Of a stretch of 64,000 bases of DNA, positions 40,601-42,302 are shown in pieces. Origin of the DNA: the human T2T-CHM13v2.0 reference genome, Homo sapiens. Under the pieces are notes generated by a model. The model had not been told where the DNA came from. It made no database searches and worked only from the letters and a program-made list of their open reading frames with translations. Location: NCBI RefSeq assembly GCF_009914755.1, contig NC_060935.1; one strand, written 5' to 3'. A program made the translations under genes and the position numbers. Each line of letters begins with the position of its first letter. Position 1 is the stretch's first letter.

Positions 40601-42302
40601 TGTAAATACTTGGGTAAAATTGGAAGGTACAAATAAGTAATTACTGAACCAGTGGAAGCCAAGTTTAGTTGGGGAATACTTTTTATGATACTGATAAGTG
40701 AAGGCTTATTAGTTTTAAAAGTGCTGGCTTTATTTTTGTAGTTACAGAGTGGTGTAAAGGCAAGGCTTACTTAGCTTTTGGATTTTACATAAACATTATT
40801 TATTTAGTAAGCTAGTTTTTTTTTTGTTTTTTTGTTTGTTTGTTTGTTTTTGACAGAGTTTCGCTCTGGGAGAGTTTCGCTCTGTCTCCCAGGCTGGAGT
40901 GCAGTGACGCGATCTCAGCTCATTGCAAGCTCTGCCTCCTGGGTTCACGCCATTCTCCTGCCTTAGCCTCCTGAGTAGCTGGGACTACAGGTGCCCGCCA
41001 CTACGCCCAGCTAATTTTTTGTATTTTTAGTGGAGACGAGGGTTCATCGTGTTAGCCAGAATGGTCTTGATCTCCTGACCTCATGATCCGCTCGTCTCAG
41101 CTCCCAAAGTGCTGGGATTACAGGCGTGAGCCACCGCGCCCAGCTGCTAGATTTTTTTTTAAGGTGCACTAGCCACTTAGGATATTTTCACTGGTGGGAA
41201 CTGAGATTTTTTAGATGCCTGAATTAACTACTAATTTTGGTTTATTTTAGGTACATGCTTATTGAAACAGTATTTTTACTTAGCCTAAATTTAAATTTTT
41301 TTATTATTTTGTTAAAGTGATGAATATGTTTGAAAAATAAAGACAACTTTTTTTTTGCCTTTTTAGGCTAGAGCTTTAGCATGAGAATTATACTTTGACA
41401 CAGAAAATTAGGTTTATAAGGGAAATATAATAAAGTGTTTTGGAAAGCAGGAAACTTTATTTTATAACTTTAAGTGAAAAATATGTGGCATTAAGGCCTG
41501 ATTTTTTATTGTTTTGTCTTTTTTTAACTTCGGGAATTAAAATTTTTTGTTTAAATGCTGAATTTGCAAATTGAAACAGACTTTTGGGTTTTGTTATAAA
41601 AGCAAAGTAATAATGTTTTTATGTATTTTATAGGGTTATATAGCATAATAACTTGAATTTATGGTTGGATTTGACTGAATTTATATAGATACTAATTTGA
41701 ATGACTTATACACAGAAAATGTGCAATATTTTAAGTATAAAAATTAAACTGGAACTGTTTGCTTTTGTTTTATAGTATAAATAAAAATAACCTAGATGGC
41801 AAACTATTTAATTATTTGAGCAGAACTTATGAATGAAAGATATATTTTAGAGCCATATGACTGAGGGACATTTTAACTTGCACTTTTTAGTGGCAAAAGT
41901 AGTGTATAAACTAATGTTAGTGTATACACTACAAAAGGGCTAAGTGTGTAATATTTTTTAATTTCATTTTAAAAATGAAAGTCTTTTTTTTTATGGTGAA
42001 GGGCAATAACACTAAATTTTTTATGGGTACAAGGGAATGATTTATTTAGTACATTAACACACTTAACTGTTAGTGTTTTTGGGAAGCTGGATTTGCTACA
42101 AACTTATTTTGAAAAACATGGATTATTAAATTTTATAATAAAGTTATTAATAAAGACATAGTTAAGTTTTTATAAACACTAAATGTGTGTATTTGTTGTT
42201 ATGGTTCTAAATGTTAAAGAAAAACCTTTGAAAATTAGTATAGTGATAATATACATGCTTTGTGTTTGCTATTAAACTTAAGACCAAGAACAATGCCTAA
42301 AA
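40601..42302. other. Foreign non-L1 insert of unknown origin, TC-depleted on + strand (putative APOBEC3-edited DNA)
   Basis: Interrupts collinear L1 endonuclease-domain sequence; 6 TC in ~1370 nt excluding the nested Alu; no poly(A) or TSD visible. Confidence 0.85.
40816..41145 (-). mobile_element. AluY with 14-bp internal duplication
   Basis: tgcaagctctgcc, ttcacgccattctc, cgtgttagccagaatgg; TSD gctagttttttttt / gctagattttttttt; agagtttcgctctg at 40855 and 40871. Confidence 0.95.

What the first reader, a model, noticed from the sequence alone, without database searches (positions are those of the whole stretch)
40601..42302. ~1.37-kb captured segment with near-total strand-specific loss of TC: candidate germline fossil of APOBEC3-type hypermutation
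Seen: the segment interrupts collinear L1PB1 endonuclease-domain sequence (left ...acattctctaagatagatga, right tcattaaattcaagaaaattgaaat...). Excluding the nested Alu, I count by hand ~124 C in ~1370 nt. Only 6 follow a T (~41189, 41518, 41531, 41965, 41983, 42207), against roughly 50 expected from a T content near 40%. There is no CCC, every CC is preceded by a purine, and AC, GC and the complementary GA stay common. TC returns right at the L1 boundary (five in 42303-42342). Known: APOBEC3A/B/C/D/F/H deaminate TC in single-stranded DNA, APOBEC3G prefers CC, and AID prefers WRC, which is retained here. Inference: the + strand was ssDNA edited nearly to saturation before fixation. If it was first-strand cDNA, the source RNA reads on the - strand. 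I do not recognise the segment as any repeat, so it may be an edited copy of a cellular transcript or intron rather than a retroelement; an edited ERV fragment is not excluded.
Basis: partly seen in the sequence, partly recalled or inferred. Interest (0 to 1): 0.9.

Follow-up and report, generated by a model that had tools for sequence, protein, structure and literature searches.

The report
APOBEC-hypermutated retroelement fragment captured inside L1
A 1.36-kb piece of an old LTR retroelement sits inside an L1 with almost every C that follows a T or C on one strand changed to T, the known footprint of APOBEC3-type antiviral editing; the unusual part is that it entered without LTR ends.

Summary
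Outside the nested Alu, window 40601-42302 has 6 TC against 67 GA and 12 CC against 56 GG. No other 1-kb stretch of the window has fewer than 28 TC.

The segment is not unique DNA. It is an internal fragment of a low-copy, apparently non-coding LTR retroelement with paralogs on chr3, 6, 9, X and Y. These carry 47-56 TC over the same columns (full-length rows).

Against the LTR-flanked chr9 copy the window reads T at:
- 50 of 55 TC and 27 of 32 CC
- only 16 of 68 AC and 4 of 39 GC
- the opposite strand is at background

Editing is even along the whole fragment and is not seen in the L1 flanks. LTR orientation in the chr9 copy puts the element's sense strand on the window's minus strand. The edited strand is therefore minus-strand cDNA, as APOBEC3 restriction predicts.

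The fragment has no LTR end, no poly(A) and no target duplication, and it replaces about 26-31 nt of L1. I infer integrase-independent capture of edited cDNA at a chromosome break.

Hypermutated ERVs are well documented, so this is a new member of a known kind. Interest is moderate.

The parts
39990..40597 (+). L1 ORF2 (endonuclease-domain region), left part, not edited
   Evidence: It is 88-91% identical to many L1 copies, and 32 of the 39 other-locus matches end at query position 368 = window 40597. YC>YT is only 3/37 to 6/45 against five L1 copies. An RVT_1 hit at 43234-43443 on the + strand fixes the L1 orientation and places the junction about 310 codons upstream of the RT domain.
40598..40602 (.). 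Left junction: about 5 nt assignable to neither partner with certainty
   Evidence: Reading of the junction against four L1 copies and the paralog alignment.
40603..40816 (-). Edited LTR-element internal fragment, part 1 (element sense strand = window minus strand)
   Evidence: Collinear with paralogs across the Alu site. YC>YT is 14/15 vs chr9 and 16/18 vs chr6 in this bin.
40817..41144 (-). Later Alu insertion with its T-run, not edited; the target duplication is about 40811-40825 and 41145-41160
   Evidence: Rfam SRP and Alu-derived miRNA-family hits on the - strand at 40866-41144. Paralogs are continuous across the site with about 15 nt of overlap. TC 26 vs GA 19 inside.
41161..42302 (-). 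Edited LTR-element internal fragment, part 2
   Evidence: 75-84% identical to 7 other genomic loci. Editing is even in five bins, YC 9/11 to 14/16 vs chr9.
42303..42950 (+). L1 ORF2 resumes; 26-31 nt of L1 are missing between the two parts
   Evidence: In four intact L1 copies the left flank ends and the right flank starts 26-31 nt apart. Junction read. There is no YC-specific C>T (YC 10/38 vs RC 17/57 against L021).

Best explanation
SHOWN. The segment is a 1.36-kb internal fragment of a low-copy LTR retroelement subfamily. On the window's + strand nearly every C that follows a pyrimidine has become T. The element's sense strand is the window's minus strand, so the change reads as GA>AA and GG>AG on the sense strand. 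Editing covers the whole fragment evenly and on one strand only. It is not seen in the L1 on either side, nor in the Alu that inserted later.

INFERRED. During reverse transcription of the element's RNA, the minus-strand cDNA was exposed as single-stranded DNA. One or more APOBEC3-type cytidine deaminases, TC-preferring with weaker CC activity, deaminated it to near saturation. Second-strand synthesis then fixed U as T.

INFERRED, less firmly. A double-stranded piece of this dead-end cDNA, lacking both LTR ends, was joined into a chromosome break inside an L1 ORF2 by end joining rather than by integrase. About 26-31 nt of L1 were lost in the process. The event falls within the family's amplification burst. 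An Alu inserted afterwards.
For: Paralogs:
- One search found 7 other loci (75-84% identity).
- Over the window's columns the five full-length unedited rows hold 47-56 TC and 22-34 CC. The shorter chrX row (819 nt) holds 32 TC and 21 CC. The partly edited chr3 row holds 25 TC and 21 CC. The window holds 6 and 12.

Direction and context, versus chr9:
- TC 50/55, CC 27/32, AC 16/68, GC 4/39.
- Mirror strand: GA 9/75, GG 3/48.
- The other six references give the same picture.
- YC versus RC: odds ratio 33.5, p = 1.4e-23.
- Where at least 4 paralogs agree: TC 12/12, CC 5/5, AC 3/18, GC 1/11.
- By the -2 base: YTC 31/32, RTC 19/23, YCC 20/20, RCC 7/12.
- Five of the six surviving TC lie at columns where most paralogs have T or A (at one of them, 41983, 2 of 7 have C). 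They look like later mutations.

Single strand and extent:
- All six bins show YC 9/11 to 14/16, with GR at 1/9 to 3/17.
- Flanks are unedited.

Orientation:
- The chr9 copy has direct repeats of 468 nt (89.5%) plus 113 nt (93.8%). They start with TG, end with CA and contain AATAAA.
- A TGG-initiated PBS-like 18-mer follows 2 nt after the 5' repeat.
- The window's + strand aligns to chr9's minus strand.

The family is an APOBEC target:
- chr3 and chrX copies are partly edited (YC 35% and 26% vs RC 14% and 11%).
- In a different internal stretch, the eight rows of the younger (chr9-like) subfamily show sense-strand GR>AR of 29-42% against GY 11-19%. Two more distant rows, L026 and L027, show 24% and 29%.

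Mode of entry:
- No LTR end, no poly(A) and no target duplication; 26-31 nt of L1 are missing.
- Retroviral DNA does enter induced breaks without integrase catalysis (abstract of PMC3605128).

Age:
- The tree is star-like, and the window's end branch of 0.039 is similar to chr6 (0.030) and chr9 (0.035).
Against: - The enzyme is not identified. At saturation, context preferences blur, and APOBEC1 (TC-preferring by recall) cannot be excluded.
- AC sites read T in 16/68, above the GC rate of 4/39. I attribute this to CpG decay and noise but did not test it.
- The capture step rests only on the absence of LTR ends, poly(A) and target duplication, plus a small target deletion. No empty site from another species could be examined.
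- A second LTR-less fragment of the same region exists on chr6 and is unedited. Some other route may therefore spread this part of the element.
- The family shows no retroviral protein domain: 0 credible Pfam hits in 111 ORFs of the chr9 copy and 28 of the chr3 copy. Its retroviral nature rests on LTR structure alone.
- The PBS-to-tRNA assignment is recalled, not tested.
- The right L1 flank carries more private C>T (16/65) and G>A (12/71) than the left (2/80, 5/57). These show no YC bias and occur on both strands. I ascribe most of the difference to having chosen the reference L1 copies by their likeness to the left flank.
Confidence: 0.7

Rival explanations
1. An ordinary hypermutated provirus integrated elsewhere. 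A piece of it was later copied or moved here at the DNA level (templated break repair, gene conversion or a small transposition), and the donor has since been lost.
For: The junction features (no duplication, small deletion) fit templated insertions as well as capture of free cDNA. Ultra-edited integrated ERVs exist in the human genome (44 reported; PMC4866542 passage).
Against: No other copy with this editing was found. The best match elsewhere is 84% identical and unedited or only partly edited. This reading needs an extra, now-missing donor.
Confidence: 0.12
2. An L1-driven retrocopy. L1 reverse transcriptase copied a piece of the element's transcript at a break or nick (endonuclease-independent insertion, or a template switch during the L1's own insertion), and APOBEC3 edited that L1-made cDNA.
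For: The target is an AT-rich L1. By recall, endonuclease-independent L1 insertions lack target duplications, delete target DNA and can lack poly(A). The edited strand has the same polarity as the L1 RNA, so a switch of the L1 enzyme onto single-stranded minus cDNA is geometrically possible (inference).
Against: There is no poly(A) or A-rich end and no duplication. Strand-biased G-to-A was reported for human ERVs but not for other human transposable elements (PMC6955324 passage). The family itself carries APOBEC-type footprints in LTR-flanked copies, which points to its own replication cycle.
Confidence: 0.1
3. In-situ clustered mutation: the fragment was inserted unedited and was deaminated later as resected or replicating single-stranded chromosomal DNA (kataegis-like).
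For: APOBEC clusters near breaks are strand-coordinated and fall at TC (recalled).
Against: YC-specific editing is seen inside the fragment but not in either flank. It is near-complete and even over 1.36 kb on a single strand. Resection of a duplex from both ends would edit opposite strands in the two halves. Known clusters are far sparser (recalled).
Confidence: 0.03
4. No editing at all: the sequence family is simply TC-poor on this strand.
For: Unedited paralogs do have somewhat fewer TC than GA (for example 56 vs 75 in chr9).
Against: The full-length unedited paralogs have 47-56 TC against 6 here, and the differences are C>T at YC specifically.
Confidence: 0.01

Closest known systems
APOBEC3-hypermutated ('edited' or 'ultra-edited') endogenous retroviruses of primate genomes (Knisbacher & Levanon 2015, PMC4866542; Ito, Gifford & Sato 2019, PMC6955324; HERV-K traces, Esnault et al. 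2008, PMC2531183, search listing only)
   Same: Strand-specific G-to-A on the element's sense strand. GA and GG contexts, as reported for human ERVs (passages). Unedited relatives elsewhere in the genome. A mutation load in the range called ultra-edited (at least 25 G-to-A; here 97 C>T of 209 mismatches to chr9, about 54-61 above background).
   Different: This copy is an LTR-less internal fragment inside an L1, with a target deletion and no duplication, so it is not an integrase product. TC sites are essentially all converted. It is old, so G-to-A is no longer the majority of mismatches (97/209). That would fail the published ultra-edited filter as described in the passage. I could not check whether this locus is in their tables (supplement unreadable).
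Integrase-independent insertion of retroviral DNA at double-strand breaks (Koyama et al. 2013, PMC3605128, abstract read)
   Same: Viral DNA is joined into a break without integrase catalysis, so LTR-end processing and the fixed-length duplication are not expected.
   Different: That work is experimental, somatic, used HIV-1, and produced infectious progeny virus (abstract). Here the evidence is a germline-fixed 1.36-kb hypermutated fragment of a non-coding element, and the break is only inferred.
L1-mediated processed retrocopies
   Same: A reverse-transcribed copy of a transcript lying inside AT-rich DNA.
   Different: No poly(A), no target-site duplication, and both ends are internal to the source element.
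Class I (gamma-like) non-autonomous LTR elements of the human genome
   Same: LTR of about 550 nt with TG..CA and AATAAA, a TGG-initiated PBS-like site, many LTR matches (428 first-look candidates, 40 scored), and an internal region without detectable gag, pol or env.
   Different: The family name could not be assigned, because no Dfam or Repbase library was available. The PBS type (Phe-like) is from recall only.

Membership tests
APOBEC3-type hypermutated retroelement | Large excess of C>T on one strand relative to unedited relatives, with the opposite strand at background | tested here: met
   C>T 97 vs T>C 22 and G>A 26 vs A>G 19 against chr9. Pairs among the five unedited paralogs are roughly balanced; pairs involving the partly edited chr3 copy are not. 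YC 77/87 vs mirror GR 12/123, p = 7e-33.
APOBEC3-type hypermutated retroelement | The edited strand is the minus-strand cDNA (G>A on the element's sense strand) | tested here: met
   Sense strand is set by the LTR pair, AATAAA and the PBS-like site of the chr9 copy. The window's + strand aligns to chr9's minus strand.
APOBEC3-type hypermutated retroelement | Dinucleotide context TC and/or CC (GA/GG on sense), not WRC | tested here: met
   TC 50/55, CC 27/32, AC 16/68, GC 4/39 vs chr9. RCC 7/12 shows true CC-context editing.
APOBEC3-type hypermutated retroelement | Editing confined to the element, absent from flanking host DNA | tested here: met
   Left flank YC>YT 3/37 to 6/45. Right flank YC 10/38 vs RC 17/57, with no context bias. 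Private changes are listed.
APOBEC3-type hypermutated retroelement | Identity of the deaminase (A3 paralogue vs APOBEC1 or other) | not testable with these tools
   Only context is available. GTC (5/9) and RCC (7/12) are the least edited.
LTR retroelement / endogenous retrovirus (the source family) | Paired LTRs with TG..CA ends flanking an internal region | tested here: met
   chr9 copy: repeats at 7120-7996 (with an Alu inside) and 15775-16326 of the fetched 20 kb, 89.5-93.8% identical. chr3 and chrX copies run collinearly into the 3' LTR.
LTR retroelement / endogenous retrovirus (the source family) | tRNA primer-binding site next to the 5' LTR | tested here: inconclusive
   An 18-mer starting with TGG lies 2 nt after the LTR. 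Its likeness to the tRNA-Phe complement is recalled. A literature search for the motif found no paper holding it.
LTR retroelement / endogenous retrovirus (the source family) | gag, pol or env coding remnants | tested here: not met
   There are 0 retroviral Pfam families in 111 ORFs (>=40 aa) of the chr9 copy at E<=0.01 and in 28 ORFs (>=45 aa) of the chr3 copy at E<=0.1. As a rough control, an L1 ORF of 70 aa of similar age gave RVT_1. The family is therefore filed as LTR-flanked and non-coding, not as a coding ERV.
Integrase-mediated proviral insertion (for the window copy) | LTR termini at both ends and a short fixed-length target duplication | tested here: not met
   Both ends map inside the internal region (about 9519 and 11540 of the chr9 stretch). 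No duplication is present, and 26-31 nt of target are lost.
L1-mediated retrocopy by target-primed reverse transcription (for the window copy) | 3' poly(A) and a target-site duplication | tested here: not met
   The sense 3' end (window left end) has no T-run on the + strand, and no duplication is present.
Capture of extrachromosomal DNA at a double-strand break by end joining | No duplication, small target deletion, short ambiguous or microhomologous junctions | tested here: met
   26-31 nt of L1 are missing. About 5 nt at the left junction and about 8 nt at the right are assignable to either partner.
Capture of extrachromosomal DNA at a double-strand break by end joining | An intact empty site in a species that diverged before the insertion | not testable with these tools
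   Only this one human assembly could be searched.

The most novel reading that the evidence does not exclude
The locus is a germline fossil of a restricted, dead-end retroviral cDNA. A fragment saturated by APOBEC3 editing and stripped of its LTR ends was nevertheless endogenised by end joining at a chromosome break, without integrase. Restriction products themselves would then be a source of new genomic sequence, and LTR-less edited fragments may be a class that ERV-centred surveys overlook. The unedited LTR-less fragment of the same region on chr6 hints that such capture happened more than once in this family.
Probability: 0.45. Interest if true: 0.55.

Novelty: new member of a known kind. 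Interest (0 to 1): 0.35.

Why it matters
This is a very clean natural example of APOBEC-type editing run to completion. Essentially every ancestral TC and every YCC is converted, RCC is about half converted, and RC is untouched. The borders are sharp and there are seven paralogs to read the changes against, five of them essentially unedited. That makes it useful as a reference signature for ancient primate deaminase activity. If the capture reading holds, it shows that heavily edited cDNA fragments can still reach the germline without integrase. It would also mean that genome-wide counts of edited elements, which start from annotated ERVs and closely matching pairs, undercount old or fragmentary cases. 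It does not change the accepted picture of APOBEC3 restriction.

Tried and rejected
- A three-letter (C collapsed to T) and an ordinary BLAST of the segment against the rest of the 64-kb window gave only low-complexity noise and no donor.
- Pfam scans of ORFs from the chr3 and chr9 copies gave no retroviral domain. An attempt to scan long read-through translations was rejected by the tool because of stop codons and was not pursued.
- Rfam over 39500-43500 gave only Alu-type hits, so no known RNA gene explains the segment.
- I considered chr6 as a possible cellular source of the AT-rich module and rejected it. chr6 is as close to chr9 (6.1% non-C/T differences) as any copy is, and it sits in the same unresolved star as the LTR-flanked copies.
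- I tried to see whether this locus is in the published tables of edited elements. The supplement archive of PMC4866542 could not be read, so that remains open.
- A literature search for the recalled PBS motif found no paper holding it.
- The family could not be named, because no Dfam or Repbase library is among the tools.
- I checked the apparent excess of C>T in the right L1 flank. It has no YC bias and is matched by G>A, so it is not an extension of the editing.

Full report
**Observation.**
- With the Alu removed (40601-40816 plus 41161-42302, 1358 nt), the + strand has 123 C.
- Only 6 of these follow a T (48 expected from base content), while GA occurs 67 times.
- CC occurs 12 times against 56 GG. 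AC (67 vs GT 76) and GC (38) are not depleted.
- There is no CCC, and all 12 CC follow a purine.
- The chance of 6 or fewer TC when 48 are expected is 2.8e-14.
- Among 601 one-kb windows elsewhere in the 64 kb, the lowest TC count is 28. Inside the region it falls to 4.
- TC reappears at once in both flanks: five in 42303-42342 and three in 40541-40600.
- The loss affects C after either pyrimidine, not only after T.

**What the segment is.** A search of the window's own assembly found seven other loci 75-84% identical to 41161-42302. They lie on chr3, chr6, chr9, chrX and three places on chrY.
- The paralogs are continuous across the Alu site. The Alu is therefore a later insertion with a target duplication of about 15 nt.
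- Homology among the paralogs runs far beyond the window's 1.36 kb.
- The chr9 copy is flanked by direct repeats of 468 plus 113 nt, split by an Alu in the 5' copy. The repeats are 89.5-93.8% identical, begin with TG, end with CA and contain AATAAA.
- Two bases after the 5' repeat lies an 18-mer beginning with TGG. From recall it resembles the complement of a tRNA-Phe 3' end. I could not test this.
- The chr3 and chrX copies run collinearly into the 3' repeat.
- The repeat alone has many relatives in the genome: 428 first-look candidates, of which 40 were scored, at 85-90% identity.
- A different internal stretch has more than 40 relatives. The AT-rich stretch that includes the window's fragment was found at only about ten places.
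- No retroviral protein family was found in 111 ORFs of the chr9 copy or in 28 ORFs of the chr3 copy.
- I therefore describe the source as a low-copy subfamily of an LTR-flanked, apparently non-coding retroelement. Without Dfam it could not be named.
- The window fragment corresponds to roughly 1.2-2.6 kb downstream of the 5' LTR once the chr9 copy's own Alus are discounted (about 1.5-3.5 kb in raw chr9 coordinates). It contains neither LTR.

**The editing.** Over the window's columns the five full-length unedited paralogs carry 47-56 TC and 22-34 CC. The shorter chrX row has 32 and 21, chr3 has 25 and 21, and the window has 6 and 12. The donor family is therefore not equally TC-poor.
- Mismatches to chr9 are C>T 97, T>C 22, G>A 26 and A>G 19. 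Pairs among the five unedited paralogs are roughly balanced.
- By the paralog's own context, the window reads T at 50/55 TC, 27/32 CC, 16/68 AC and 4/39 GC. On the other strand it reads A at 9/75 GA and 3/48 GG. The other six references agree.
- YC against RC gives an odds ratio of 33.5 (p = 1.4e-23), with about 54-61 edits above background.
- Where at least four paralogs agree: TC 12/12, CC 5/5, AC 3/18, GC 1/11.
- Adding the -2 base: YTC 31/32, RTC 19/23 (GTC 5/9), YCC 20/20, RCC 7/12. CC is therefore a true target, though a weaker one than TC.
- Five of the six TC now present lie where most paralogs have T or A; at one of these, 41983, two of seven paralogs have C. These TC probably arose after the event, so the original conversion of TC was close to complete.
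- Editing is even in all six bins along the fragment and always on the same strand.

**Orientation.** The window's + strand aligns to the minus strand of the chr9 copy. The chr9 copy's LTR, AATAAA and PBS-like features read on its plus strand. The converted strand is therefore the complement of the element's RNA, that is, minus-strand cDNA. This is the strand and the context reported for APOBEC3 action on retroviruses and for human ERVs (passages of PMC6955324 and PMC4866542).

**The family as a target.**
- The chr3 and chrX copies show a milder version of the same bias (YC 35% and 26% against RC 14% and 11%).
- In a separate 1.4-kb internal stretch, the eight rows of the younger (chr9-like) subfamily show sense-strand GR>AR of 29-42% against GY 11-19%. 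Two more distant rows reach 24% and 29%, and the remaining five show 16-21%.

**Borders and mode of entry.**
- The left L1 flank shows no YC-specific change (3/37 to 6/45). The right flank shows none either (YC 10/38 against RC 17/57).
- The right flank does carry more private C>T and G>A than the left (16/65 and 12/71 against 2/80 and 5/57). These lie on both strands and show no YC bias. I attribute most of the difference to having chosen the reference L1 copies by their match to the left flank.
- In four intact L1 copies, the points where the window's left flank ends and its right flank resumes lie 26-31 nt apart. That much L1 was lost.
- The junctions show no target duplication, no poly(A) or T-run, and no LTR terminus. 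A few bases at each junction could belong to either partner.
- An RVT_1 match at 43234-43443 on the + strand places the junction about 310 codons upstream of the RT domain.

**Age.** After dropping columns that hold both C and T, the tree is an unresolved star. The window's end branch (0.039) is similar to those of chr6 (0.030) and chr9 (0.035). The fragment therefore dates from the family's burst of activity. It predates the nested Alu.

**Mechanism.**
- Shown: near-saturating, single-strand, YC-specific C-to-T change of a retroelement-derived fragment, on the cDNA strand, completed before the fragment was joined to the L1.
- Inferred: APOBEC3-type deamination of minus-strand cDNA during reverse transcription, with U fixed as T when the second strand was made.
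- Inferred with less weight (about 0.55): the fragment entered a chromosome break by end joining rather than by integrase. Its ends are internal to the element and target DNA was lost.
- Entry of retroviral DNA into induced breaks without integrase catalysis has been shown experimentally (abstract of PMC3605128).
- By recall, uracil-rich cDNA is cut by uracil excision and AP endonuclease, which would give LTR-less pieces. I did not check this in the literature here.

**Rivals.**
- A DNA-level copy from a lost, integrated hypermutated provirus.
- An L1-driven copy, either endonuclease-independent or by template switch.
- In-situ clustered mutation.
- Plain compositional bias.

The last two are contradicted. 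The first two cannot be excluded without outgroup genomes.

**Comparison with what is known.** Strand-biased G-to-A with GG and GA contexts in human ERVs, and individual hypermutated copies, are established (PMC6955324). A survey reported 6,058 edited elements across vertebrates. Of these, 1,237 were 'ultra-edited', including 44 in human, with up to 234 sites per element in primates and rodents (PMC4866542).

The present locus is a further example. It has three particular features:
- TC conversion is essentially complete.
- It is old, so C>T is only 97 of 209 mismatches to its nearest relative. As I read the quoted filter, this would fail the 'majority of mismatches' test.
- It is an LTR-less fragment that entered by a non-integrase route.

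I could not check whether the locus is already listed, because the supplement archive was unreadable.

**Verdict.** The APOBEC3-type interpretation is supported. The source is a retroelement, not a cellular transcript. This is a new member of a known kind. Interest is moderate, mainly for the capture route and as a clean reference signature.

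Noticed in passing
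L002/L010 (chr3 copy) and L007/L015-L016 (chrX copy): Two LTR-bearing paralogs carry a milder version of the same strand-specific YC>YT bias: 35% and 26% at YC against 14% and 11% at RC.
   Followed up: partly
L014:2636-4078 and its relatives L025-L038: In another internal stretch, the eight rows of the younger (chr9-like) subfamily are depleted in sense-strand GA (for example 40 GA vs 76 TC in chr9). They show GR>AR of 29-42% against relatives, which suggests APOBEC-type editing accumulated along the replicating lineage. Two more distant rows reach 24% and 29%.
   Followed up: partly
L003 / L011-L012 (chr6, about 9703-11777 of the fetched 20 kb): A second LTR-less internal fragment of the same element. 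It is 2.07 kb, has no poly(A), overlaps and extends beyond the window's fragment, and is not edited (TC 56). How it got there is unexplained.
   Followed up: partly
L013-L014 (chr9 copy): An LTR-flanked element of about 9.2 kb (including 5 Alus and one other insert) has no detectable gag, pol or env domain in 111 ORFs. It looks like a non-autonomous element with an AT-rich internal module found at only about ten loci.
   Followed up: partly
window 40860-40895: The nested Alu carries a short internal tandem duplication (a stretch of about 17 nt occurs twice in a row near its tail end).
   Followed up: no
window 42306-42950 versus 39990-40597: The right L1 flank is more diverged from the same reference L1 copies than the left flank (79-82% vs 78-86% identity; private C>T 16/65 vs 2/80). 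The excess shows no YC bias. It is probably an effect of how the references were chosen, but a mosaic L1 is not excluded.
   Followed up: partly
window 53701-54900: A GA-rich stretch (about 103-107 GA against 38-41 TC per kb) is the next strongest TC/GA asymmetry in the window. GG and CC are both high, so it looks like a purine-rich repeat rather than editing.
   Followed up: no
window 39839-39989: Another Alu-type element (Rfam SRP and Alu-derived miRNA-family hits on the - strand) lies in the left L1 flank.
   Followed up: no
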